From Ruditapes philippinarum (Eukaryota): 64,000 bases of DNA. Numbering within the stretch: position 1 is the first letter of the stretch; every line of letters starts with the position of its first letter. The notes under the pieces were generated by a model that was not told where the DNA came from, searched no databases, and worked only from the letters and a program-made list of their open reading frames with translations. Positions 11,535-61,559 of this stretch are shown piece by piece. Location of the stretch: NCBI RefSeq assembly GCF_026571515.1, contig NW_026851606.1:1-64000 (forward strand), given 5' to 3'. The translations under genes were made by a program, and so were the position numbers.

Positions 11535-13320
11535 ACACTTAAATGATTGCTGATTTCTTTTATCTCCACACTGAAATGATGACTGATATTTACTCTTTCC
11601 TTCTTACTGAAATTATTGCTGATATTTGCTATTACCTAAACACTGAAATGATTGCTGATATTTACTTTCTCCTTCTGACTGAAATGATTGCTGATATTTG
11701 CTATTACCTTAACACTGAAATGATTGCTGATATTTACTTTCTCCTTCTCACTAAAATGATTGCTGATATTTGCTATTAATTTAACACTGAAATGATGGCT
11801 GATATTTACTTTCTCCTTCTTACTGAAATGATTGCTGATATTTGCTATTACATTAACACTGAAATGATTGCTGATATTTGCTTTCTCCTTCTCACTGAAA
11901 TGATTGCTGATATTTGATTTCTCCTTAACACTGAAATGATTGCTGATTTTTACCTTCTCCTTCTCACTGAAATGATTGCTGATATTTACCTTCTCACTGA
12001 AATGATTGCTGATATTTACTTTTTCCTTATCACTGAAATGATTGCTGATATTTGCTTTCTCCTTCTTACTGAAATGATTGCTGATATTTCCTTTCTCCTT
12101 CTCACTGAAATGAATGCTGATATTTACTTTTATCTTAACACCGAAATGATTGCTGATATTTGATTTCTCCTTCTAACTGAAATGATTGCTGATATTTGCC
12201 TTCTCCTTCTTACTGAAATGATTGCTGATATTTACCTTCTCACTGAAATGATTGCTGATATTTACTTTCTCCTTCTCACTGAAATGATTGCTGATATTTG
12301 CTTTCTCCTTCTCACTGAAATGATTGCTGATATTTGCTTTCACCTTAACACTGAAATGATTGCTGATATTTACTTTCTCCTTATCACTGAAATGATGACT
12401 GATATTTGCTTTCTCCTTCTCACTGAAATGATTGCTGATATTTACTTTTTCCTTATCACTGAAATGATTGCTGATATTTACTTTCTCCTTCTAACTGAAA
12501 TGATGACTGATATTTACTTTCACCTTAACACTGAAATGATTGCTGATATTTGCTTTCACCTTAACACTGAAATGATTGCTGATATTTGCTTTCTCCTTCT
12601 CACTGAAATGATTGCTGATATTTACTTTCACCTTAACACTGAAATGATTGCTGATATTTGCTTTCTCCTTCTCACTGAAATGATTGCTGATATTTGCTTT
12701 CTCCTTCTCACTGAAATGATTGCTGATATTTGCTTTCTCCTTCTCACTGAAATGATTGCTGATATTTCCTTTTACCTTAACACTGAAATGATTGCTGATA
12801 TTTACTTTCTCCTTCTCACTGAAATGATTGCTGATATTTGCTTTCTCCTTCTCACTGAAATGATTGCTGATATTTGCTTTCACCTTAACACTGAAATGAT
12901 TGCTGATATTTTTTTTCTCCTTCTCACTGAAATGATTGCTGATATTTGCTTTCTCCTTCTCACTGAAATGATTGCTGATATTTACTTTTTCCTTATCACT
13001 GAAATGATTGCTGATATTTACTTTCTCCTTCTAACTGAAATGATGACTGATATTTACTTTCACCTTAACACTGAAATGATTGCTGATATTTACTTTCTCC
13101 TTCTAACTGAAATGATTGCTGATGTTTTCTTTCCCTTTCTCACTGAAATGATTGCTGATATTTGCTTTCTCCTTTATGCTAAAATGATTGCTGATAATTT
13201 GCTTTAATGATGGGTGATATTTTTTATCTCCTTCTCACTGAAATGATTGCTGATATTTTCTCTCTCTTTCTCAATTAAATGATTGCTGATATTACTCTCT
13301 TCTTCACACTGAAATGATGA
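11535..13320. repeat. 36-bp minisatellite (~49 copies), consensus CTGAAATGATTGCTGATATTT(A/G)CTTTCTCCTTCTCA
   Basis: Direct head-to-tail units with no spacers; source of the spurious MIADI... ORFs. Confidence 0.95.
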
Positions 13321-15795: not shown

Positions 15796-16279
15796 TGGGA
15801 ACTATGTTAAAGGCAGTTTTTGCTTACCATTGTATTTAATCTAAAAGGATGACTTATGCTTTAGCATATCACTCCAAATGTGACTAATATTGTCTGAACA
15901 TGCGGTGTATGATTCCCGACTATAAGACAGTCAGCTGATGAAGTACTGCAGTTGCTTTCTTAAAGTTATTCATTTTTCTACCATCATGTCTCATCCTCCA
16001 CTGCAAAAAAATAAAATTTAATCATTCCCTTTTTAAAAAATGGACATAATTTAATGCATAAATAACAGCAATGGATTTGTGCTGAGAGTTTCTAAGCCTT
16101 GTTTACAAACACAATTAGCAGATCTGACTCCCTGTAAGCCATCCTTGATTCCAGTGGTATGGATATTAGATATTTATAACAAATTCCTCAACTGGTGCTC
16201 AGCATTAACAGCATGATTCTTGAATCATTTAGTCATGCAGTCATGTATCATTCTAAGGAGAAATTAAACATGAATAAAT

Positions 16280-17150
16280 ATTGGCATGCCACCAGGTATT
16301 AATAGAGGGCAATTAAAGTATTGGCATGCCACCAGTTATTGAGGGCAATTAAAGTATTGGCATGCCACCAGTTATTGAGGGCAATTAAAGTATTGGCATG
16401 CCACCAGGTATTGAGGGCAATTAAAGTATTGGCATGCCCACAGGTATTGAGGGCAATTAAAGTATTGGCATGCCCACAGGTATTGATGGCAATTAAAGTA
16501 TTGGCATGCCACCAGGTATTGAGGGCAATTAAAGTATTGGCATGCCACCAGGTATTAAGGGCAATTAAAGTATTGGCATGCCACCAGGTATTGGGGGCAA
16601 TTAAAGTATTGGCATGCCACCAGGCATTGAGGGCAATTAAAGTATTGGCATGCCACCAGGTATTGAGGGCAATTAAAGTATTGGCATGCCACCAGGTATT
16701 GAGGGCAATTAAAGTATTGGTATGCCACCAGGTATTGAGGGCAATTAAAGTATTGGCATGCCACCAGGCATTGAGGGCAATTAAAGTATTGGCATGCCAC
16801 CAGGTATTGAGGGCAATTAAAGTATTGGCATGCCACCAGGTATTGAGGGCAATTAAAGTATTGGCATACCACCAGGTATTGAGGGCAATTAAAGTATTGG
16901 CATGTCACCAGGCATTGAGGGTGATTAAAGTATAATGGCATGCTACCAGGTATTGAGGACGATTAAATCACCTTAATTGGCATGCCACCAAGTATTGAGG
17001 GTGATTAAATCACAGTGGCATGCCACCAGGTACTGAGGGTGATTAAATCACAATGGCATGCCATTAGGTATTGAGGGTGATTAAATCACAGTGGCATGCC
17101 ATGAGGTATTTATAATGTGCAATTAAAAGTATAAGCATGCCACTAGGTAT
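16280..17150. repeat. 36-bp minisatellite (~24 copies), consensus TTGGCATGCCACCAGGTATTGAGGGCAATTAAAGTA
   Basis: Direct tandem units that degenerate toward 17150; each has an internal palindrome TGGCATGCCA. Confidence 0.95.
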
Positions 17151-18089
17151 TCCTCTCTTATTAGCATGTCAAACTGAGGAAAAAATAGAAAATAATTTTT
17201 CCAGTATTATTGTACACTCTTAAGTACGCTTCACAAATTAGGAAGTCAGGAAAATCACTTCTAAGCTCAATGTAGTTCAACATATTTTTTTTTATCAATT
17301 TTCTTTTTATTAAGTTGCTACAAAGAATGGACAAAGTTATTAATTCGTTGTGCATTGTTGTATAATAATGCACAGTTATTTTTTCAAATGATCGGCCTCC
17401 CCAATTATATTCCTATGCATTTAAACTGGAACTGTGCATTATTCTACAACAATGCACTCAGAATTTATATCTATTTCCTATTTTTCTAGTGCTTTTGTAC
17501 AATAATGCAGGTTTTATCTTTCAAATTGCTATTTAATTAATCACTCTGACTCTGACACTCATTCAGGTAAACATGAGTCTTTAACCGCCGTATGAAAACA
17601 TCTGCGAATGTTTCTATATTCAAAATTTCACCATTTCTGTGTTAAATGTTGAATTCTGCTTAAGCCGGTGCTGGGGGGCGTGGACGGTAACTTGCACTTT
17701 CCAGTACCGTCCATGAACAGGCTCAATCAAACCGAGCCTGCAACATTTTCAATTATGTTGTGTTTGACTTTCTTTAGTGATTCTGTTTTTCTCTATTTTA
17801 TTAACAATACATGTATCACTGCGCAATTGAACTTGCATTTACAGCTAAAATTGCTAACACATTCAATCAGAGATGTTATATTTCCAATCCTTAAAGATCG
17901 TTCAGCACAACATTATTTTTGTGTTTGTGGTATTTTAAGTTGTAACTTTTTGGCATTTTCTAATTGGGTGGTTCCAATATTCCTACTTGAATAATGTTGA
18001 ATCACCCTTAGGATATGTTGCCTGCTTTTTAACTTTGTCTTTTGACATCTTATCTGTGATATGCAGGCTTCATAACCATAGATCCCCTT

Positions 18090-19995
18090 TCAAACTTCCC
18101 TTCCAACCGTCCATACCACCCTTACTACCTATGGAATATACAACTATATAAACGGCCTCCAACCTCCCCTTCTAGCCGTCCATACCACCCTTACTACCTA
18201 TCAAATATACATAAACTATCTAAACGGCCTCCAACCTCCCCTTTTAGCCGTCCATACCACCCTTTCTACCTACTGAATATACATAAACTATTTAAATGGC
18301 CTCCAACCTCCCCTTCCAGCCGTCCATACCACCCTTACTACACATCAAATATACATAAACTATCTAAACGGCCTCCAACCTCCCCTTCTAGCCGTCCATA
18401 CCACCCTTACTACACATCAAATATACATAAACTATCTAAACGGCCTCCAACCTCCCCTTCTAGCCGTCCATACCACCCTTACTACACATCAAATATACAT
18501 AAACTATCTAAACGGCCTCCAACCTCCCCTTCTAGCCGTCCATACCACCCTTACTACACATCAAATATACATAAACTATCTAAACGGCCTCCAACCTCCC
18601 CTTCTAGCCGTCCATACCACCCTTATTACACATCAAATATACATTAAACTATCTAAACGTCCTCCAACCTCCCCTTCTAGCCGTCCATACCACCCTTACT
18701 ACACATCAAATATACATAAAACTATCTAAACGGCCTCCAACCACCCCTTCCAGCTCATACCACCCTTACTACACATCAAATATATATCAACTATCTAAAC
18801 GGCCTCCAACCACCCCTTCCAGCTCATACCACCCTTACTACACATCAAATATACATAAACTATCTAAACGTCCTCCAACCTCCCCTTCCAGCCGTCCATT
18901 CCACTCTTACTACCTGCTGAATATACATAAACTATCTAAACGACCTCCAACCTCCCCTTCTAGCCGTCCATACCACCCTTATACCTATCATATATACATA
19001 AACTATCTAAACAGCCTCCAACCTCCCCTTCCAGCCGTCCATACCACCCTTACTACCTGCTGAATATACATAAACTATCTAAACAGCCTCCAACCTCCCC
19101 TTCCAGCCGTCCATACCACCCTTACTAAATGCTGAATATACATAAACTATCTAAACAGCCTCCAACCTCCCCTTCTAGCCGTCCATACCACCCTTATTAC
19201 CTATCATATATACATAAACTATCTAAACAGCCTCCAACCTCCCCTTCCAGCCGTCCATACCACCCTTACTACCTATTGAATATACTTAAACTATCTAAAC
19301 GACCTCCAACCTTCTCTTCCAGCCGTCCATACCACCCTTACTACCTATTGAATATACTTAAACTATCTAAACGGCCTCCAACCTCCCCTTCCAGCCGTCC
19401 ATACCACCCTTACTATCTATTGAATATACTTAAACTATCTAAACGGCCTCCAACCTCCCCTTCCAGCCGTCCATACCACCCTTACTACCTATTGAATATA
19501 CTTAAACTATCTAAACGGCCTCCAACCTCCCCTTCCAGCCGTCCATACCAACCCTTACTACCTATTGAATATACTTAAACTATCTAAACGGCCTCCAACC
19601 TCCCCTTCCAGCCGTCCATACCACCCTTACTACATATCAAATATACATAAACTATCTAAAACGGCCTCCAACCTCCCTTCTAGCCATCCATACCACCCTT
19701 ACTACATATCAAATATACATAAACTATTTAAACGGCCTCCAACCTCCCCTTCTAGCTGTCCATACCACCCTTACTACCTGCTGAATATACATAAACTATC
19801 TAGACGGCCTCCAACCACCCATTCCAGCCGTCCATACCACCCTTACTACATATCAAATATACATAAACTATTTAAACGGCCTCCAACCTCCCCTTCTAGC
19901 CGTCCATACCACCCTTACTAACTACTGAATAAATTACATAAACTATCTAAATGGCCTCAAACCTCCCCTTCTAGCTGTCCATACCACCTTACATC
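18090..19995. repeat. 72-bp minisatellite (~26 copies), C-rich on the + strand
   Basis: Unit ...AAACTATCTAAACGGCCTCCAACCTCCCCTTC(C/T)AGCCGTCCATACCACCCTTACTAC...; 24-codon periodicity in the ORF track. Confidence 0.95.
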
Positions 19996-21107: not shown

Positions 21108-24100
21108 TCATTTAGAACTAGAAATGTGTACATAGGTTTCCTCCATATTCCACTGTTTTGCCAGTCTATGGATGGACAACAGGTCAGTTGAAAAGGGTGC
21201 AATATATAAAAAAACTAGAAATGTGTCCATAGGACACAGTGCCCCCACACTCCACCGATTTGTCAATCTTATGTCTCTAGGTCAAATTTTTTTTTGGCTA
21301 CATGTGCCCAACTTGAAAACTAAAAATCTTTTATTTAAGTAAAGGGCAAATACTATAAATACTGAATAAATCCACAAGAAAATCCCAAGGTGCATAAGTA
21401 CACATGCTGACCAACATTCTTGTAAACGTTCAGGCCTACAGGTCAAATACTTTTTGAGTTACCTGCAACACAAGTTGAATATTGTAAATTTTTACTAAGT
21501 CAAGGGCAATAACTCTAAAAATACTAAAAATGTCCACACCAAAATATCCAGGTGCACAACTTCACATGCTGAGCAACATTCTTGTAAGGTTTCATGACTC
21601 TAGGTCAAATATTTTTTAGTTACGTGCGACACAAGTTGAAAATTGGAAATTTTTTATTAATTCAAGGGCAATAACTCTAAAAATGCTAAAAATATCCACA
21701 CAAAAATACCAAGGTGCACAACTACACATGCTGAGCAACATTCTTGTAAGGTTTCATAATTCAAGGTCAAATACTATTTTGTTACGTCTGACACAAGTTG
21801 AAAATTGGAAATTTTTACTAATTCAAGGGCAATAACTCTAAAAAAACTAAATATATCCACACAAAAATACCAAGGTGCACAACTACACATGCTGATCAAC
21901 ATTCCTGTAAGGTTTCATGACTCTAGGTCAAATATTTCTTGAGTTACATGCGACACAAGTTGAAAATTGCAAATTTTTACTAATTCAAGGGCAATAACTC
22001 TAAAAAATACTAAAAATATCCACATGAAAATACCCAGGTGCACAACTACACATGCTGAGCAACATTTTTGTAAAGTTTCAAGACTCTAGGTCAAATACTT
22101 TTTTAGTTACGTGTGACACAAGTTGAAAATTGGAAATTTTTACTAAGTCAAGGGCAATAACTCTAAAAATACTAAAATATCCACACGAAAATACCCAGGT
22201 GCACAACTACACATGCTGAGCAACATTCTCGTAAGGTTTCATGATTCTAGGTCAAATACTTTTTTAGTTACGTGTGACACAAGTTGAAAATTGGAATTTT
22301 TTACTAAATCAAGGGCAATAACTCTAAAAATACTAAAAATATCCACATGAAAATACCCAGGTGCACAACTACACATGCTGAACAACATTCCAGTAAGGTT
22401 TCATGTCTCTAGGTCAAATATATTTTGAGTTACGTGCGACACAAGTTGAAAATTGCAAATTTTTACCAAGTCAAGGGCAATAACTCTAAAAGTACTAAAT
22501 ATATTCACATGAAAATACCCAGGTGCACAACTTCACATGCTGATCAACATTCCTGTAAGGTTTCATGACTCTAGGTCAATTACTTTTTGAGCTACCTGCG
22601 ACACAAAAAGAGAAGGAACGGACGGACAAGGGTAAATCTAAATCCCCCCATAGTGGGGGCACAAAAATGATAAAATTTCTGAAAACTGATGAAATTGCTC
22701 TTATTTATGTCTCCTATTTATTTTGACAACACTATTTGATAAAAACTCATTAAAAAAACTAACTACCCTACACCCCCTACAGCATTACTACACTACAATA
22801 ACTAACTAGTAAAAATACCTCCGAAAGTTGGGATGACTTGGGTTGACGTGGATGGCGGGCCGTTTTGCAGCAGGGTACCAATCTGTATCATCGTCCCTAC
22901 CACTCTTGCGGCTCACTGAAATATATAGTAACTCATGTTTATTTCAAAGATATGTAAGCTATTAGATTGACAGAAGTTAAAATATGGCATATACTTACTT
23001 AGAATTTTAATTATATAAGAGGATATTTGTTTGTTTTGCATGTAAGATTGAAATATATTTCACTGAGTGAACACCAGATACAATATTTTCATGAGTGGCA
23101 TAGCCACAAGTGAAAATAGAATAGCTCGTGTTCAGAATGAAATATTTTCAATCTTATATGCAAAACAAATAAATTTTCTTCTTATTTCATGCTTTATTAG
23201 TGATTTTAAGTATGTTTACTGATTTTACCGCGTAACATCGCGCATTCTCCTTTATGTTGTTCTATTTAAATTAGTTATGATATTCTTTTCACCCACATTT
23301 AGATAAAGTTCGGCGTAACTGTCAGCAAAAATTTTTTTTTTTATAAATTTCACTAGTGGTTTAACAGAATATAATCATCCAATATTTACAGTAAAACACT
23401 GGAAAGCATGAAATAAATACATGTACTTGTTTCTTTTTGTTAGAAAAAGTCTATTTCATGTACCTGAAAACAAGATTGAAATAAAGTAGTTAAGTAGATA
23501 CAAAATGTAATTATAAAGATTGCAAAATACAAAGTAAACATAACATAAATCAGAGGAAAAAATTTTGTTTTCAGAACATGCAATGAGCCATTTTGTCTGA
23601 AAAATGAACAATTTGTAAGGAAATGTTGATAATTTATCCATCTAACACTGGTGAAGTTCTGAAATAAAATATAAACAGGCATGATAATATAATTGAGATG
23701 AGCACCTTTCTTACTGCTGTCCTTGCTATTTTTAGACAGCAGGAGACTGAAGTCAAAATGCTCTTCAGCCTCAAGACGCCATTCCTCCATCTGCCAGATC
23801 ATCTCATTTGTGAGGCTGGTAAATATTAATAGAAATGTTTAGTATGAATTTAAGTTTCACAATAACAATAAAACAATCATGAGTGTGACAACAGGCCCCT
23901 TCCTGTTAATTTTAGAAGAAAATAAAGGATTCAATTTAAAACATTTTGATCTGGCAGCTCAAAATATAACATAATATTTAATTTATTTATGCACTGTTTT
24001 CTATTTTTCATTTATTTTTATTTGTAGAGAAAAACATAGAGGAAAGGACCTAGAGTCTTATCATACATAAAAGTTCTTGTAACAAATATTCAATTGAAAA

Positions 24101-39087: not shown

Positions 39088-39867
39088 TTTTTGTGCCCCC
39101 ACGTTAGTGGCGGGCATTTAGATTTACCCTTGTCCGTCCGTCCGTCCGTATATCCTTCCGTCCGTCCGTCCGTTCACTTTTGTGTCGCACGTAACTCAAA
39201 AAGTATTTGACCTAGAGTCATGAAACTTTACAGGAATGTTGATCAGCATGTGTTGTTGTGCACCTGGGTATTTTCGTCTGGATATTTTTAGTATTTTAAG
39301 AGTTATTGCCCTTGACTTAGAAAAATTTTGCAATTTTCAACTTGTGTCGCATGTAACTCAAAAAGTATTTGACCTAGAGTCATGTAACTTTACAGGAATG
39401 TTGATCAGCATGTGTAGTTGTGCACCTGGGTATTTTCGTGTGGATATTTTTAGTATTTTCAGAGTTATTGCCCTTGACTGAGTAAAATTTTGCAATTTTC
39501 AACATGTGTCGCACGTAACTCAAAAAGTATTTGATCTAGAGTCATGTAACTTTACAGGAATATTGATCAGCATGTGCAGTTATGCACCAGGTATTTTCTT
39601 CTGGACTTATTTAGTATTTTTAGAGTTATTGCCCTTCACTTAGAAAATTTTTGCAATTTTCAACTTGTGTCGCAAGTTACTCAAAAAGGATTTGACATAG
39701 TCATTAAACCTTATGGGTAGGTTGCTCAGCATATTCAGATTTGCACCTGGGGTTTCGCTTGTGAATTTATCCAGTATTTGTAGAGTTATTTCCCTTGACT
39801 TAGTAAAAAGATTGACAGAACAGTGGCGCGGTGGGGGCACCCGTGTCCTATGGACACATTTCTAGTT
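39088..39867 (-). mobile_element. Second copy of the HINE family at 21214-22666, opposite orientation, ~5 internal repeats
   Basis: Ends TTTTTGTGCCCCCAC..GTGG and GTGTCCTATGGACACATTTCTAGTT, (GTCC)n, and the same ~120-bp unit reverse-complemented. Confidence 0.8.
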
Positions 39868-40480
39868 CTTATTTAAAAAAAAACTTGAACATAAATCTAT
39901 TGTATGGGCAGATGCTGACACGAGCACTGAATGCTAAATATAGTTTATTTACTTTATTACAATGGTCAGACTCTAGCAACTTAACTTTACGTACATGATA
40001 TTACACTGAAAGACACTTCTTACGCAGGACTTTTCAAAATTGTTTTACATAAATATGATTAAAGATATATCATTGACACTTTACAAATACTGGTTTGGCC
40101 ACTAGTTGCAAATATGATTATAATAGGATGATAATAATATCATTTATAAACACTTGAAGGATGATCATTTCATGGAGCATATATGTAGCTGGTGTGAGCA
40201 TTTTTAATTTAATGAATGCCTGATTTTATGTTAACTAGCAGCACTGCAGAAACAAATAATAACATTGAAATGTAAAATGAAACACCCAAGCCCCATCTGC
40301 ATGCATCAGACAGATCTACATTTATATGTATACATGTAAATCTGTGGACAAGTCATTCACAGATTTATAATTTAGTAGTAATTTATTTTGGCATAAGCGA
40401 CCTTTCCAAATATTGAGAAATACATGACAGCAAAAATTAAATATATTTGCACCAAATAACATTGTCATTAATAAATAATA

Positions 40481-50073: not shown

Positions 50074-51617
50074 ATGAGTAAAGTGACGGTGATAAAAGTT
50101 GCATCTTGGTAAAGATTACAAGTATTATAAATAGATATAATTATATATTTTCTTTTAAGATATCAAAACCCTAATAATTACATGACCCAAATCATACTTT
50201 AAACAAAATTATACGTCAGTTGCACTTAAATCGTCAAACAATCGTACACAATTATATACTATTTCGGCCGTTTCCGTCAAAACTCGGTGAATATCAAAAC
50301 ACAGACGAAATTGCATTCACTTGATATGATTAAGACAATTATAAATATAATTTTCGTTTCAGGGCATGCATTCTGTTTGTTCTATCTATCATTTTGATTC
50401 GAGATAAGAGCATGTTTGGAACAATACAAACAACTTTAAGAGACATCTGCTTGCCAATGTCCTCTTACCCCAAAACTCCAATACAACAGCTAGACCTTCT
50501 ATCATTGACAAACGCGCAAGCGCAACCGGAAAGTAGGGCGCCATTGGCAGACAAAGAAGAAGCCACAGCAGACGGTAATAATGCAAACAATTTAGCATAC
50601 GAAACTAAAATGATATCTCTGAATGAAACACGTAGCATAGTAGGTATAAACTCGAGTACAGTCACACACATTGCATTTCTAAAAGTACACAAAGCAGGTT
50701 CGACTACTATTCAGAATATGTTATTTAGGTTTGGAATCAAAAAGGATTTAAATATTATTCTGTCGAAAAAAGGGAACCAGCTTTGGAGCAAGGCTGAGGA
50801 ATTGCCAATAAGAAAGGGTCAGCATTATGACATTTTTGCTCTTCATACAATTTACAACAAAAAGTTTTTCGACAGCTTACTTCCGGCGAATCACGTGAAG
50901 ATTGGAATTATACGCGAACCGTTGAGTAGAATGATAAGCGCGGCATATTATCATCGTGACGTTTTCCATGTCGCATACTTACGAAGAGTCCCACGAGCAA
51001 ATTATATCCACAACTTAGTGAACTTTCCAGAAAAGTATGACCGGCTGCTGTTTTCCAAGACACGGAATACCATGGCGCGAGATTTTGGATTTTCCGGCCA
51101 TTGGAATCAGACTGAAATCAAGACATATTTGGAAGAACTTAATTCCCAGTTTCTCTTCGTTCTGCTAATGGAGAAATTTGACGAATCATTAGTTTACCTA
51201 CGTCGTCTGCTCAATTGGTCAGTGTCTGATATTCTATACATTAAAACTAACTTGCATAAGCATCCACCGGTTGTTCTCAATGGTAAAGAGCAGGAAAAAT
51301 TCAGAAAAACAAATGTGTATGATTTCTATGTGTACAATTATTTTAGTAAAGTTTTTGATAAAAAGTTAAAACAAGCGCCTAGTGATTTTTGGCAGGAAGT
51401 GACGTATTTTAAAAAGTTAGTTCAAGAAGTTAGCTTTTTGTGTGGCCATTCTAAAGTAACTCAGTCTGCGGCACCAGTGTTATCTGTTAAGGAAACGAAA
51501 TTTAACGGTCATTTTGAAGTGACCAGTGCCGACTGCGCTATGATGAAAACTCCAGAACTGTCCTTTATTGAAAAATTACGACGAAGGCATCGCAGAAGAC
51601 AGAATCTGGCGTCATAA
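50074..51617 (+). CDS. Galactose-3-O-sulfotransferase family protein (GAL3ST-like), copy 1; type II Golgi membrane protein
   Basis: Exons 50074-50108 and 50363-51617 (phase-2 intron, TG|G) give MSKVTVIKVASWACILFVLSIILIR (signal anchor); 5'-PAPS motif IAFLKVHKAGSTT, 3'-PB motif IREPLSRMISAAYY, and EKFDESLVYLRRLLNW. Confidence 0.88.
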
Positions 51618-53503: not shown

Positions 53504-55286
53504 ATGTTGGTGTCGACTAATTTTCATACGTTTTTCAAAATTATCTGTTGGTAAGTGATTTCTAAGTTAAATATGAAACAATTTTACCAGTTTTCACTGG
53601 CTACTAAACGCTGAATTTGGATATTGATATGTATGAAGGTGAATCTTGCGCATCTAAACGAAAACTTCACTTCAGCTCTAAAGACAAATGTTTGAGGCTG
53701 TTCCATTTTACGCCCTTCTGGTGCCATGCTTTTCTATTCTGTCAAAACATTAAAGAATTGAAAAGAAATTTGCTGTTTCAGTTATTTCTTTGTGTAACAT
53801 ATCATGTTTTTATTTTATTTTTACCTTTGTTCTCAATTCATGGACATTTTTCAATTCTATTATGTTCGGTAAATAGTTCAGTATTTTAATACGTTTTTTT
53901 TTATATAAGTCATATAAGAAATAGTCTATATAATAAAGTCATATAAGAAATAGTCTAGATTTTTTGAATGCATCTGTAAAGTTCATATGTGATCAGTCAT
54001 GTTTCTTTCTGTTAACGTCATACTGGTACATTGTAACTAAATTCGTAGATTAAATTACTGTATTATTTTTCAGCACCATAGTGTTATGCGTCGGCATGCT
54101 CTTTACAACAAATTGGACACGAGAGTCAGGAATGTGTCAACATATCTCAATGCAATACATTCGTCCACTCAAAACTCGTGCAGTTGCACGCGAGGATCAC
54201 GAGATTTTTGAAGACACGAGGAAAGCTCTCATGAGCGTCAATAAATCTTCTTTTAATTTAGACAGCCCGCAAACTTTCAGTACTGGAAACAATTCTCTGA
54301 CGATTAATCAAACAGCTACAGGAGAAGGAAAAAAGCCAAAAATCACTCATATAGCATTCTTAAAGGTTCACAAAGCAAGTTCGACAACCATGCAGAACAT
54401 TTTCTTCAGATTTGGACTGAAAAATAATTTAAACATTTTACTTCCCAAAAGGGGTAATTACCTCCAGAAAAAGGCGGATCAAATGCCAATTAAACGACCA
54501 AACCATTATGATGTATTTGCCATACATACAATTTACCATAAATCGTTTTTCGACAGCCTACTTCCGGTAGATGCCGTAAAAATCGCAATAGTTCGGGAGC
54601 CAATCGACAGAATGATAAGCGCCGCCTACTATTATCGCGACGTGTGGCATAAACCCTACTTAACTAGAGTCCCGCGTGCAGGCTTCATTCACAACCTTGT
54701 CAAATATCCGGAGAAATACGAGCCCAGCTTTTTTTCGGACACCCGAAATGCGATGGCAAGGGACTTCGGATTACCGAATAAGTTTAAGCCAACTGACACC
54801 CAGGGAGTTCAAAACTACTTACAGCATCTAAACTCTCAGTTTTTATTAGTATTATCCGTGGAAAAAATCGACGAATCTCTAGTGTTAATGAAACGATTAC
54901 TCGGATGGGAATTGAAAGAAATATTATATGTAACAAAAAACAAACACAAGCATACGCCAATCGTACTAAGCGCTTACGAAAAATCCAAATTTAGAAAAAC
55001 ATCGTTTTTAGACTTTAAAATTTACGACTATTTCACAAACGTTTTGGATGAAAAACTTAACAAAATGCAAGAAGACTTTTGGAAGGAAGTTAACTACTTG
55101 AAAACGATACTAAAAAGGTTAAACGTGTTTTGTTCAAGTAACAATCAAAGTCTCGGAATAGTTATAGCAAAGACAAATTGGAATGACCAATTCAGCATTT
55201 ATAAAAACGATTGTAAATTAATGTCAACTAATGAACTTTCGTTTATTGCAAAGCTTCGAGCCCGTCATAGACAAAGAAATTCATAA
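53504..55286 (+). CDS. Galactose-3-O-sulfotransferase family protein (GAL3ST-like), copy 2
   Basis: Exons 53504-53550 and 54074-55286 (phase-2 intron, TG|C) give MLVSTNFHTFFKIICCTIVLCVGMLF (signal anchor); motifs IAFLKVHKASSTT, VREPIDRMISAAYY and EKIDESLVLMKRLLGW. A likely 5'UTR exon donor is at ~52596. Confidence 0.88.
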
Positions 55287-57332
55287 CATTAAATCATATT
55301 ATTTTATTTATTTATTGTTTTTGTAAAAAAAAATGTATCTTTTTTAATATATTATTAAAATGTTTAATAAAACCAAGTTACAGTTAATATTGGCGTGTTA
55401 TTGGCTTATTGCTGGTATAGTTTACTTTGTCCCATGTATTTGCTGGAATAAAAACATGTATATACACTGTACTATGTCAAATGTTGTCTTAATTTAGACA
55501 TATACTTTTTCATAATATGAGAAAATTCAGCTATTCAAAATTATGTGCTGGCCACATGAGCTTTATGACAAACATTATGTATAAAATATTGTTGTTTTTT
55601 AATAATTAAACAAGCAATGCTTATCTAAGTGATTTTTATAGGAGAAAAATAATCTACGTTTGCATCGGTTTGTTGTTGCGACAAATAAATGACATGAATT
55701 CTTACGTTCCCGACTAGCCTGACTTCTGTTAGAAAAAAAATCATTCTTCTTCCAAATGACTCTTTTTTTTTTGCAAACAAGCACCGAGATTGTTACGATT
55801 TAGTCATGGTAAAACAATTAGTTTATTTAGTGATATGTCGTAAATATAATTAATATGGAGAATATTTTGAGGAAATGTTTTACATGTATACCCTTTCACG
55901 TGTTATTAATTCGAAAAATCAAATAAAAAACATCTTTAAAAACTAATAAAATTTGTTTCTTTTATTTAAACAACACAATTAAACATACTTTTACTCATAA
56001 AAAAAATAAATTATTCAATGAGTAAACGCCAAATAATTATTGATATAAAACCAATTAAAATTGTGATCATTAGTGAGAATCTATATCATTGAAATATATG
56101 GAATATTTTTGAGTGTGATCAAATACAAAGACATTCAGTACTCATTATGCAAAGATCACGTCCCCAATCTTCGTTTACATCTAACGGTAACCTGGTAGAT
56201 CTACTTTCAATCCGAGATGATGATTAGTAAATGGCGAGGTGTTCCAAAGTTTTCAAAGTCATGAGTGCAGGCTTCATACAGTCAAAGTCAAGTTTTCTGA
56301 TCAGGATCCATGCTGTTCGCTATCAGTTTCTCTACTTGCTATAGGGTTTGTAAGCGAACAGCATGGATCCTGATCAGACTGCGCGGATGCTTGTACATAG
56401 TTTTTTTTTTGAAAGACCATGGTTTTAGGAAAATAGCAATTACAATTTTAGAAGGAGAATTAATTTTAGATTGGGAAATTTGATAAGATCTCTATGCATT
56501 ACTCAAAACGAACAAAAAAAACACCCAGGTTGACCAAACTCTTTGCATCTGCACCGATTACAGGATCTAACAGCTGAATGGTGTCTATGAGTAGACATGC
56601 ATGGTTGCCTGTCCTTGGTTTGCGCACAATACGGACACTAGACAAAATTTATGAAACAATCGAAGCCTTAAAATATATTTACAGTGTATTTATTTATTTA
56701 TTTATTCGTTTATTTACATACATGTCACGTAGATTTATACCTCAAGATTCATCTAAGCAACAATGTACAAAGCAATTTGAATCAAATTTACAACATCATT
56801 ATCAATTATTTCGTTTTATTCTAAATGAAAATAGAAGGTCTCTGGCCAGTTTGTCAAGCTGAATGACAGATAGTTCTTACATGGACAAACAATTGCCAGT
56901 TTCTAAGAAACTGTGAAGGGTATGGATTGAAATGATTGCACACTTGGTTCATGCAAAATAGTTGCAAACTTTACAAATGTTAAGGTTTCAGCATTTGACC
57001 TAATTTTTGAGGATATATTTTGGTCTTGTATACTCATAACTTGAGAATTGACAAGCAACTATTCTGGGCTTTTTCCATCTGTAAGTTTTGAAGTTCGTGA
57101 AACAAGACAAAATATGTTTTTTCCACATAAATATATATTTGAATAAATGAGTAGAAAACCCAACCAGAATAGTTACTTGCTAACTCGCGAGATATGCACA
57201 TGACCAGTTTATATCTTCAATAACTTCGTCAAATCAGAACCTAGAAAGCTAAAACCTAAAACTGAATATGTCATAAACCTTGCCTTAATGGATAGACATA
57301 TTAAAAAAATATTTTTCATAACACTCACTTAC

Positions 57333-59168: not shown

Positions 59169-61324
59169 TTATATCAACCGACTTCCCGTTCATAGCCTTT
59201 GCTTATTTCATATATCTGGTTCCCTGTCGTATTATGGTTCCCATCTACGTTCTCTGACTGGTGGATTAAATTTAGATATCATATAAAACACGAAATGGCC
59301 ATATAGATAGTGTAGGTGTGTAGAGTGCGGCCGACAGTGTGCAGTTCTAAGTGTATTGAAAATAGTTTTAAGTGTATTGAAAAAAGTTAAATGTGTTTCT
59401 ATTCCCTTCGCCGAAAGATGGCGCAGCCCTAGAAGACCTAGAAACCTGGGACTGGCATATACATGTATATTGCCCAAAAGACGATTTCTTGCCATTAACA
59501 ATTTAAGAGGACGGTTTATTCCTGGTCTCATTATACATGCACATGTTTTATAAAGGCGACTTTTATAATTCCCGTTTGATTAATGTATAACCGCCCTTAG
59601 GATATGTTGCCTGCTTTTATAAGCTTTTTTTTTAATGTTTATTTATTTTTTTATTTTATTTATTTATTTTGACATCTGGCTTTATGCAGGCATTATAACC
59701 TCTGATCACTCTTCAGAATAGTAGTAAATATACAATGTTTTTTTAGAAAATCACCCTCACTGCAAACGCTTCCATGACAAAGGGGTTAACTAAATGCTGC
59801 TTTAGTCGGTAATAGGCGGCGTGGACGGTAGCTTGTACCTTACGCTACCGTCCATGGACAAACACAATCAATTCTGCTGTTTTGGACGTTCTTTAAGTAC
59901 TCTAGGGTTCTCTTCTCTATTGCACATGTATCACTCAAGTTATAACTTGGTAAAATGGTTTGAATTCAACACCATGGTATTCAACTGTTCTACACGTCGC
60001 CTCAATGAATCAAGTTTCATGAAAATTCTTCAAAAAAGTAAAGGAAATATAGGACGGACACCAAAAAGGGAGCTCGAACGTTTGACCCTCGAGTGTGATA
60101 TTTACTTAGACCTTACTTACTCATAATCTGTGCATTGAATGATACAATGATGGATTGTTTTATATGATATAAATCTATAAAAATGAAAGTCCAATGTTTG
60201 ACCTTCACATTAACAGAATTTTATCAGACTATCGCTTTTTTTAAATAAAAGATACGTCAAAGTAACGAAGTTGTACTTATGTTTGTGCGAACCTTTAATA
60301 ATAGTACAAAATGTATATGTTTATCTGGCTTCCGGACCCATGTACTTTAAAATCAAGTAATGCTGTGTGAGGAATATTCTACACCCATAATTAATTCTCA
60401 ATAACTCCTTAGGATTGCGATACAATTTTTTACAAAAAAATACGCCTTATCAAACATTTTAATTTCAAAAGACGTCATAAAGGTGCATCGAAATTTGTTG
60501 TTTATGACAGAATGTTAGATTTTTATTTATATCCAAATAATCAGAAGTTCGCCATTTTGCTCTAAGCCATTTTAAAATATGCGTTACATATGACAATTGT
60601 TTATCAGTGATCAATGCTGATAAATTGAAGTTATAAACAAATATTTCATCTAAAATTACTTTGTTCAGTTGATATTTTCGTTGGACTTTCTTTTTCAAGA
60701 TTTTTTAAATAGATAACGCGTTACATTTTTTTTTGCTCTGTACTTTTTCTCATATTGGAATGCAATTACTTTAAAGGACATCTGCTATTATGTCTATGTG
60801 CATGTTTCGATATCAAATAATTTAATGTTCCTAAAGTTTAGATAAATCATTAATGACTGCTTTAATGTTATTTTACTAGAACAAAAGTGATTAGCCTTTA
60901 CTATTAGTGATAAGACAAACAAGCTTGTACTTTCTGACAGCTGGTACCTCTCTTTTTAATTAATTTATGTTGAAATCTTTTTAATTTTGAATGGACTGTT
61001 CCGAATTCAAAGCTTGGCTATTCCATTACACTAATATGGTGAGATCAGGTTTCTCATAAAAGCGTATCATACAATTTTTTTTGTTCGCTCATAAAGACCA
61101 CCTACAAATAAAGACCTTCCTGTAAATAAAGATCACTATTTGACAAATCGTCATCTGATAATATTACGAACAGACTACACACCAAATAAAGACCATTTGT
61201 CTAATAAAGGCAATGTGTGGTCTCTCATTGTACGGACGGTCTTTATTGACAGGTTTGACTGTAGTATGATAATACCTGAGTTATGAAGATAATGTAGATA
61301 TACGTAAAATCCAGAGAAACAAAT

Positions 61325-61559
61325 GAGCCGCGTCACGACAAAACCAACAAAGTGCGTTGGCGACCAGCATGGATCCAGACCAGCATGCGCATCCGCGCAG
61401 TCTGATCAGGATCCTTGCTGTTCGCTTACAAACCCTATTAGAAGTAGAGAAACTGATAGCGAACAGCATGGATCCTGATCAGACTGCGCGGGTGCGCAGG
61501 CTGGTCTTGATCCATGCTGGTCGCAAACGAATTACGTTGGTTTTGTCATGACGCGGCTA
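61325..61559. mobile_element. Palindromic MITE with GAG terminus and AAAT TSD (Sola-like); partial copy at ~56297-56390
   Basis: AAAT|GAGCCGCGTCACGACAAAACCAAC ... GTTGGTTTTGTCATGACGCGGCTA|AAAT; almost the whole element is an inverted repeat. Confidence 0.8.

What the first reader, a model, noticed from the sequence alone, without database searches (positions are those of the whole stretch)
17640..18085. Conserved hairpin modules shared with 59.6-60.0 kb but in permuted order
Seen at both loci on the same strand. Module A: CTGCT..AG.CGGT....GG.GGCGTGGACGGTA.CTTG.AC.TT....TACCGTCCATG.ACA...CAATCAA (17655-17730 vs 59797-59871), a 10-12-bp stem conserved while the loop diverges. Module C: CTCTATT..ACATGTATCACT plus a small hairpin (17790-17836 vs 59915-59949). 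Module B: CCCTTAGGATATGTTGCCTGCTTTT...TTTTGACATC...ATGCAGGC...ATAACC (18005-18077 vs 59594-59700), where the GCCTGC/GCAGGC stem is retained despite a long T-rich loop expansion. The order is A-C-B here and B-A-C at 59 kb. Stem-biased conservation plus permuted order is what a circular or tandemly propagated element (retrozyme-like RNA, rolling-circle DNA, split terminal repeats) would leave. Module A at 59821 partly fits an HDV-like ribozyme (G.U-started 7-bp P1, GUA/UAC P3, 8-nt loop, following GG), but I cannot find a convincing P2 or J4/2, so this is only a hypothesis. Both loci sit next to orphan or decayed genes.
Basis: partly seen in the sequence, partly recalled or inferred. Interest (0 to 1): 0.7.

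Follow-up and report, generated by a model that had tools for sequence, protein, structure and literature searches.

The report
Naiad parasite repeats with ribozyme-like core
The two spots are worn copies of one very abundant non-coding repeat whose head-to-tail units explain the shuffled order; the repeat shares its junction with a Naiad jumping gene and is likely copied by its enzyme, and its predicted fold holds a loop matching twister-sister-like self-cutting RNAs that would likely cut only when two units pair.

Summary
The modules are real. Both loci are decayed copies of a 630-nt non-coding unit found head-to-tail in a 1.4-Gb mollusc-like genome (9,467 exact tail matches; a 283-nt sister unit has 3,703). 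A-C-B and B-A-C are two cuts through that repeating unit. Copies share one 3' end, have scattered 5' ends and can exceed one unit. The unit's junction matches the junction of a resident selenoprotein-type Naiad Penelope-like element (110 of 129 aligned bases), so it is most likely a non-autonomous Naiad parasite: retrozyme-like, but with no hammerhead. Module A is a four-helix fold with compensatory changes across four lineages. It is not HDV-like. It carries the 11-nt catalytic loop of twister-sister-like ribozymes (exact in the 283 unit), closed only by a G-U pair and a palindromic tetraloop, which suggests cutting as a dimer. Cleavage, expression and circles are not shown, and both window copies have damaged cores. 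The scan found this family before on other DNA of this genome; I took the Naiad-junction and twister-sister leads from those notes and tested them here.

The parts
17582..18102 (+). Locus 1: one copy of the 630-nt unit, running across the unit junction (unit positions 563-630 then 1-448), cut off on the right by a 72-bp minisatellite
   Evidence: 86% identity over 455 columns plus 91% over 69 to a natural unit
17582..17644 (+). End of segment D (present in the 630 unit, absent from the 283 unit); holds the 3' half of a doubtful HDV-like fold
17645..17747 (+). Module A: predicted four-helix junction; closing helix 17645-17651/17741-17747, hairpin H2 17680-17714, hairpin H3 17718-17740
   Evidence: 10 of 30 pairs with changes on both sides across 7 sequences, 89% of cells paired versus 38-48% when slid; z -3.6
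17658..17674 (+). Twister-sister-like loop: strand 17658-17663, palindrome 17664-17669, strand 17670-17674; predicted cut 17661|17662; this copy has G at 17673 where the family has A
   Evidence: residues compared with PMC11620745 passages; family tally; coordinates
17748..17800 (+).
   Evidence: 121 of 181 ends of 630-type segments at unit positions 143-158
17801..17905 (+). Post-junction segment homologous to the Naiad 5' end; its first 55-60 nt are a variant shared only with locus 2 (second half of module C)
   Evidence: alignment to Naiad junction, 0 of 500 shuffles as good
18005..18077 (+). Module B: long imperfect hairpin in the part of the 630 unit that the 283 unit lacks
   Evidence: z -3.4; unit comparison
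18098..19992 (.). 72-bp minisatellite that truncates locus 1 (not part of the element)
   Evidence: TRF
59568..59719 (+). Locus 2: module B with a T-rich expansion (59625-59670) in its loop
59793..59871 (+). Locus 2: module A, H2 (59821-59855) intact, H3 and closing helix lost by a 22-nt deletion, three loop residues of the twister-sister-like core changed (59799-59815)
59872..59990 (+). Locus 2: decayed tail (ends about 59921) and post-junction variant; no longer significantly like the Naiad junction
   Evidence: 436 of 500 shuffles as good; only other close match is an allele with the same flanks

Best explanation
The two loci are decayed copies of a head-to-tail 630-nt non-coding unit that shares its junction with a resident Naiad retrotransposon and is likely copied by the Naiad protein, and module A is a predicted RNA fold whose twister-sister-like loop would likely cut the multimeric transcript when two units pair. 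Steps: (1, shown) the unit occurs in dispersed partial tandems, so any stretch shows a permutation of A-C-B. (2, shown) about 130 nt around the unit junction match the Naiad tail plus 5' end. (3, inferred) the Naiad protein binds that junction in a multimeric or circular RNA, nicks DNA and starts cDNA inside the RNA at the tail, giving one fixed 3' end, scattered 5' ends and copies longer than one unit. (4, supported by covariation) module A folds on the + strand. (5, inferred, untested) the palindromic arms of two neighbouring units pair and complete two active sites, releasing monomers that may be ligated into circles, as minimal hammerheads do in other Penelope-like elements. My odds: steps 1-3 about 0.9, step 4 about 0.9, step 5 about 0.5. 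Both window copies are probably inactive.
For: Tandem units at 97-98% identity. Exact tail counts 9,467 and 3,703, reversed controls 0. Fixed 3' end: 77 of 94 (283) and 121 of 181 (630) ends; longer than one unit: 38 of 80 and 14 of 113. Naiad endonuclease motif: 114 hits, control 0; 10 of 22 distinct fetched places carry unit positions about 117/145-252 roughly 1 kb upstream of it at 78-86%; N-terminal GIY-YIG with in-frame TGA; junction alignment 110 of 129 (630) and 110 of 131 (283), 0 of 500 shuffles. The published Naiad_Scon 5' end matches the same segment at 46 of 55 gap-free positions, counted by eye. Internal initiation in a Penelope-like element: PMC11167929. Covariation; circular fold z -7.0 on + versus -2.8 on - for the 283 unit. 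Homologs with a third set of stems and the same end in two metagenome contigs. Loop residues equal those named for the LINE-1 twister-sister-like ribozyme, 11 of 11 in the 283 unit, 10 of 11 in the 630 unit and both metagenome homologs, the variable one being the N-1 base that tolerates change. Chance of such a loop: 7 and 10 of 3000 module shuffles. One-pair stem with palindromic tetraloop that works as a dimer is known from axolotl retrozyme hammerheads (PMC7229834). 5' ends of 630 copies: 8 versus 2.4 expected in the 8 nt after the predicted cut (p=0.003).
Against: No cleavage, expression or circle data: run X24 is labelled RNA but behaves as GATC-junction DNA, and runs X2 and X4 hold an unrelated repeat at similar or higher depth. 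Rfam finds no twister-sister match. The outer helix has two sound pairs; the third is unpaired in 5 of 7 sequences, and none of its pairs covaries. A plain hairpin over the same bases fits the alignment about as well and is the predicted monomer fold (-8.7 versus +1.4 kcal/mol). The palindrome shows no compensating change: 32 of 94 doubly changed copies stay palindromic, a CpG-decay pattern (my count). No 5'-end excess in the 283 unit (4 versus 2.6) nor in a 3-nt window in either; 90 and 82 read-throughs of the site versus 2 stops each. The SL4-like loop has only UGCA on a longer stem. The descriptor was written after I had the lead. Module A is absent from the Naiad 3' UTR that I read, so its origin is unknown.
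Confidence: 0.5

Rival explanations
1. Same Naiad parasite, but module A is non-catalytic: a folded handle that binds the Naiad protein or host factors, or an internal promoter, and arrays arise from read-through multimers or template jumping without cutting.
For: Plain hairpin fits as well as the ribozyme-like pairing; copies read through the site freely; Naiads thrive without hammerheads (PMC8557442); hammerhead cutting was not needed for insertion in vitro (PMC11167929).
Against: Does not explain why the most invariant block across four lineages spells both strands of a known catalytic loop with only the tolerant N-1 base varying, a 0.3% event per module shuffle.
Confidence: 0.36
2. The cutter is an HDV-like ribozyme, either module A or a fold in segment D just upstream of it (unit positions 527-603).
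For: Segment D passes a strict HDV descriptor (G-U first pair, U20-G25, C22-G, P4, CUAAA, 5-bp P2) met by 5 of 3366 shuffles; 68 of 150 collected copies pass.
Against: Module A: 0 hits. Segment D: the loose descriptor is met by 372 of 3366 shuffles and the strict one was set after seeing the hit; P1 has an A-A mismatch and L3 is 9 nt; natural variants favour a competing hairpin fold (a P1-breaking change in 10 of 150; a compensatory pair in the competing fold); no Rfam match; the very active 283 unit lacks D.
Confidence: 0.08
3. A DNA element spread by rolling-circle (Helitron or other HUH) replication; hairpins act as single-stranded DNA signals.
For: One fixed end with variable other end and tandem units also fit rolling-circle copying (general knowledge).
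Against: The fixed end coincides with a Naiad junction; the fold is much stronger on one strand with G-U pairs, UUCG and GNRA loops.
Confidence: 0.04
4. A, B and C are independent repeats that lie together by chance.
For: Module C's second half is weak.
Against: A and B are fixed parts of one unit in many loci.
Confidence: 0.01

Closest known systems
Animal non-LTR retrozymes (Cervera and de la Pena 2020, PMC7229834; Li, Clavereau and Pollet 2026, 10.64898/2026.07.22.740005)
   Same: Short non-coding head-to-tail units, dispersed as monomers to multimers, self-paired predicted fold, non-autonomous derivatives of Penelope-like elements.
   Different: No hammerhead; partner is a Naiad; the 630 unit is longer than the 170-400 nt reported; circular RNA not shown.
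Naiad Penelope-like elements, clam selenoprotein group (Craig et al. 2021, PMC8557442)
   Same: Shared junction sequence, 5' truncation, partial tandems, some inverted 5' pieces, no canonical hammerhead.
   Different: No ORF; module A is not in the Naiad 3' UTR read here; no (TA)n preference. That paper reports non-autonomous Chlamys elements (MRC1); I saw no non-autonomous Naiad in the passages read.
[quoted passage not shown]
   Same: Both strands of the catalytic internal loop, in the LINE-1-rbz order; N-1 base variable.
   Different: Inner helix reduced to a G-U pair with a palindromic tetraloop; outer helix of two good pairs opens into a four-helix junction; no canonical SL4; activity untested.
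Minimal dimer-dependent hammerheads of newt and axolotl retrozymes (PMC7229834)
   Same: One-pair helix capped by a palindromic tetraloop in a tandem retroelement, completed by pairing of two units.
   Different: Different ribozyme class.

Membership tests
Non-autonomous Naiad (Penelope-like) element | Shares terminal or junction sequence with an autonomous Naiad in the same genome | tested here: met
Non-autonomous Naiad (Penelope-like) element | 5'-truncated copies, fixed 3' end, partial tandems | tested here: met
Non-autonomous Naiad (Penelope-like) element | Inverted 5'-truncated piece next to the 5' end in part of the copies | tested here: met
   10 of 186 insertions
Non-autonomous Naiad (Penelope-like) element | (TA)n target preference (frequent, not universal in Naiads) | tested here: not met
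   6 of 186 flanks
Non-autonomous Naiad (Penelope-like) element | Mobilised by the Naiad protein | not testable with these tools
   needs in vitro priming assay
Non-LTR retrozyme | Type I hammerhead in each unit | tested here: not met
   no CUGANGA core on either strand of either unit; no Rfam hit
Non-LTR retrozyme | Short tandem non-coding units with self-paired fold | tested here: met
Non-LTR retrozyme | Accumulates as circular RNA | tested here: inconclusive
   no usable RNA reads; cyclic contigs fit DNA tandems too
Twister-sister-like (lantern) ribozyme | 11-nt catalytic internal loop | tested here: met
   11 of 11 in 283 unit, 10 of 11 in 630 unit; window copies 9 of 11 and 7 of 11
Twister-sister-like (lantern) ribozyme | Stable helix on each side of the loop | tested here: inconclusive
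   inner helix only in a dimer (-18.1 kcal/mol versus +1.4 as monomer); outer helix two good pairs, no covariation
Twister-sister-like (lantern) ribozyme | Mg2+-dependent site-specific self-cleavage | not testable with these tools
   only an indirect, mixed 5'-end test
Twister-sister ribozyme (canonical) | SL4 loop G-UGCAAGU-C docking on L1 | tested here: not met
   only UGCA, in a 13-15 nt loop on a 9-10 bp stem
Twister-sister ribozyme (canonical) | Match to the Rfam model | tested here: not met
HDV-like ribozyme (module A) | Nested double pseudoknot P1-P2-P3-L3-P4 with J4/2 cytosine | tested here: not met
   0 descriptor hits at both loci, both strands
tRNA-derived SINE | tRNA-like head and LINE-derived tail | tested here: not met
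   ARAGORN 0 in 5 loci; no tail match in 3' regions of 30 RT loci, some of which did not reach their 3' end
TRIM / LTR retrozyme | Defined LTRs with constant 4-5 bp target duplication | tested here: not met
   variable 5' ends; no constant duplication, 10 of 186 with 7 nt or more

The most novel reading that the evidence does not exclude
Naiad elements have their own retrozymes: short RNA parasites that replace the hammerhead by a twister-sister-like ribozyme which is active only as a domain-swapped dimer of neighbouring units, is cut into monomers, circularises and is reverse-transcribed around the circle by the Naiad protein from an internal start.
Probability: 0.4. Interest if true: 0.8.

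Novelty: new variant of a known kind. Interest (0 to 1): 0.6.

Why it matters
Naiads are the Penelope-like clade said to lack hammerheads, and how they and their RNA are processed is open. A 283-nt parasite reduces the cis-acting needs of Naiad copying to a junction of about 130 nt plus module A, which makes the start site and the protein-binding element directly testable. If module A cuts, retrozymes are not tied to hammerheads, twister-sister-type catalysis occurs at over 10,000 copies in an animal genome, and dimer-dependent activation through a palindromic arm is a solution reached by more than one ribozyme class in tandem retroelements.

Tried and rejected
Rfam: nothing at gathering score in the window; only sub-threshold hairpin-type matches in three loci and one small region. 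Core-word scans for hammerhead, hairpin, twister, pistol, hatchet on both units: none on the + strand that fits; my twister-sister word in that scan covered SL4 only and missed the L1 loop. Canonical GIY-YIG Penelope-like elements as partner: 77 loci of 139 listed places examined (25+20+12+20); those with a readable endonuclease frame were C-terminal type, many with their own hammerhead core, and module A near them was only independent insertion. LINE partner: none in 30 RT loci. I first read the insert at L064:1300-1407 as a SINE tail; it is the Naiad 3' UTR. Viral contigs: 8 pattern hits, none with module A context; 3 of 5 metagenome hits were chance matches in GC-rich DNA. A long-range pairing between the G-rich linker and segment E and a kissing pair with the H2 loop were considered by eye and dropped: segment E folds locally. 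Expression: X24, X2, X4, X12, X7 gave no usable evidence. Palindrome covariation: none. Helenus/Ajax TRIMs: abstract only, ends do not fit.

Full report
Observation. The H2 stem is identical between the loci at 20 of 20 positions, its loop at 9 of 15. Module C is half the family's 3' end and half a weak match private to these two loci (35 of 2000 shuffles as good; no other place). The window is eukaryotic DNA: 32% GC, minisatellites, two sulfotransferase ORFs and an ANKRD13 exon; the genome has 1.41 Gb, and one run that holds the repeat is labelled mollusc metagenome. No orphan or decayed gene flanks either locus.

What the loci are. Locus 1 matches many places at 84-88% over its whole length. 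Several are head-to-tail arrays of a 626-631-nt unit, in which the order runs A, tail, E, B, D, A. Locus 1 covers unit positions 563-630 and 1-448; locus 2 covers B, a shortened D, A and the tail. That is the whole permutation. Locus 2 is a single old insertion; its one close match is an allele with the same flanks. A second unit of 277-283 nt is the same thing without B and D. Exact 25-nt tail patterns occur 9,467 and 3,703 times, reversed controls 0.

Insertion anatomy. In 246 loci not chosen by module A (100 of them chosen by tail patterns, which favours copies holding the tail), 77 of 94 ends of 283-type segments and 121 of 181 ends of 630-type segments fall in one 16-18-nt window about 55-60 nt past module A; segments under 88% identity or 35 nt were dropped. 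5' ends are scattered; 38 of 80 and 14 of 113 copies exceed one unit, up to at least 8 units. 10 of 186 have an inverted piece of the unit at the 5' end; there is no constant target duplication and no (TA)n preference. This is the Penelope-like pattern described in PMC8557442 (passages, section 6 and supplement searches seen).

Partner. Canonical GIY-YIG elements and LINEs did not share sequence. An earlier scan note (e1-9868364) pointed to clam Naiads. The published Naiad_Scon starts with segment E (46 of 55 positions, by eye). A short endonuclease motif finds 114 Naiad places here. In 10 of 22 distinct places fetched, unit positions about 117/145-252 match about 1 kb upstream of the motif; the others are truncated, interrupted or of other subfamilies. 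The protein has an N-terminal GIY-YIG and in-frame TGA. The Naiad junction (tail, then 5' end) aligns with the 630 unit at 110 of 129 and the 283 unit at 110 of 131 positions, with locus 1 less well, and with locus 2 no better than shuffles. PMC11167929 (parts 1-2 of 4 read) shows that a Penelope-like protein binds RNA across this junction and starts cDNA inside it. I infer the same here: the fixed 3' end is the start site, and only RNA that spans a junction, a multimer or a circle, is a template.

Module A. Four lineages (630, 283, two metagenome contigs from another source) keep a closing helix and two hairpins by compensatory change: 10 of 30 pairs change on both sides, 89% of cells pair, against 38-48% when slid (7 sequences, related, so not independent). 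The + strand folds better. It is not HDV-like and has no Rfam match. The least variable block is 25 nt at its 5' side. Following note e1-10133843, I compared it with residues named in PMC5660989 (parts 1-2 of 7) and PMC11620745 (passages). The 283 unit has all 11 loop residues of the LINE-1 twister-sister-like ribozyme in the same order; the other three lineages differ only at the N-1 base, which those papers report as tolerant or partly tolerant. A descriptor of this loop with flanking pairs hits 7 and 10 of 3000 module shuffles, and 25 and 72 of 3000 whole-unit shuffles on both strands; it was written after the lead. 258 of 311 collected copies keep the loop (copies with over 4 changes excluded). 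Between the two strands lie only six bases: a G-U pair capped by a palindromic tetraloop. PMC7229834 (parts 2-3 of 6) describes exactly this design in axolotl hammerheads, which work as dimers. A swapped dimer scores -18.1 kcal/mol against +1.4 for the monomer form.

Against the ribozyme. A plain hairpin over the same bases fits the alignment as well and is the predicted monomer fold; unconstrained co-folding of the 283 segment prefers another duplex. The outer helix has no covariation, the palindrome no compensating lineage (32 of 94; one search likewise shows decay), SL4 is not canonical, 5' ends are enriched past the predicted cut only in the 630 unit and only in an 8-nt window, and copies read through the site 90 and 82 times against 2 stops each. 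Read-through is expected of circles or uncut multimers, so it does not decide. No run gave RNA evidence. Both window copies are damaged in the loop (one change at locus 1, three at locus 2, beside the N-1 base).

Segment D passes an HDV descriptor at unit position 527, but natural variants favour a competing fold and the 283 unit does without it; I give it under 0.1.

Comparison and novelty. It works like a non-LTR retrozyme but is not one by definition, having no hammerhead. The 2026 preprint 10.64898/2026.07.22.740005 (part 1 of 5 and passages) ties retrozymes to Penelope-like elements and has no occurrence of twister or bivalve. Searches listed no paper on non-autonomous Naiads or on twister-sister loops in such repeats; the library lacks most subscription papers and Repbase was not seen. 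PMC11481361 (passages and one supplement), PMC10085705 (passages) and PMC10886601 (abstract) gave no match. The scan's own notes report this family from other pieces of this genome; they are leads, not support. Verdict: new variant of a known kind; interest 0.6.

Noticed in passing
L230, Naiad 3' UTR (G000:C5166, about 400 nt before the 3' end); also L134, L135, L141: The Naiad 3' UTR holds short palindromes and a small hairpin that earlier scan notes read as a dimer-type twister ribozyme. By recall only, this stretch resembles the Meta domain of MetaSINEs; if so, that domain may be a ribozyme. Not checked.
   Followed up: no
630 unit positions 527-603 (L021:6978-7054, - strand); 3' half at window 17582-17625: HDV-like descriptor hit in segment D, competing with a hairpin fold that natural variants favour.
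   Followed up: partly
G000, 114 places, e.g. L218, L230: Naiad family with in-frame TGA codons at cysteine positions, i.e. the selenoprotein type; at least two subfamilies (L225 and L226 differ).
   Followed up: partly
L050, L063, L064, L017, L033: Several insertions of the 283 unit or Naiad tail land antisense in the H3 loop of module A; only 1 of 186 in the less biased set, so a hotspot is unproven.
   Followed up: partly
run X24: Recorded as RNA-Seq but unstranded, 73-80% chimeric, with loose ends at GATC: it behaves like a Hi-C DNA library.
   Followed up: yes
run X7 (organism B): A second organism label holds the 283 unit as a 313-nt contig with one difference; sister species or carry-over not told apart.
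   Followed up: no
window 50394-51617 and 54081-55286: Two tandem single-ORF galactose-3-O-sulfotransferase paralogs (about 70% identical DNA); ANKRD13 C-terminal exon at 919-1356.
   Followed up: no
window 21210-22667 and 39088-39870: 162-bp tandem arrays with shared flanks in opposite orientation, 83-86% alike.
   Followed up: no
window 56296-56390 and 61389-61495: Short palindromic repeat, 96% alike, MITE-like.
   Followed up: no
window 11569-13318, 16275-17101, 18098-19992: Two different 36-bp minisatellites and a strongly C-skewed 72-bp minisatellite create the long spurious ORFs of the window.
   Followed up: yes
L074-L130, L187-L206: Several families of canonical C-terminal GIY-YIG Penelope-like elements with minimal hammerhead cores coexist in this genome.
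   Followed up: partly
window 17801-17860 and 59922-59990: The two window copies share a post-junction variant not seen in other collected copies; a rare old subfamily or local conversion between loci 42 kb apart is unresolved.
   Followed up: partly
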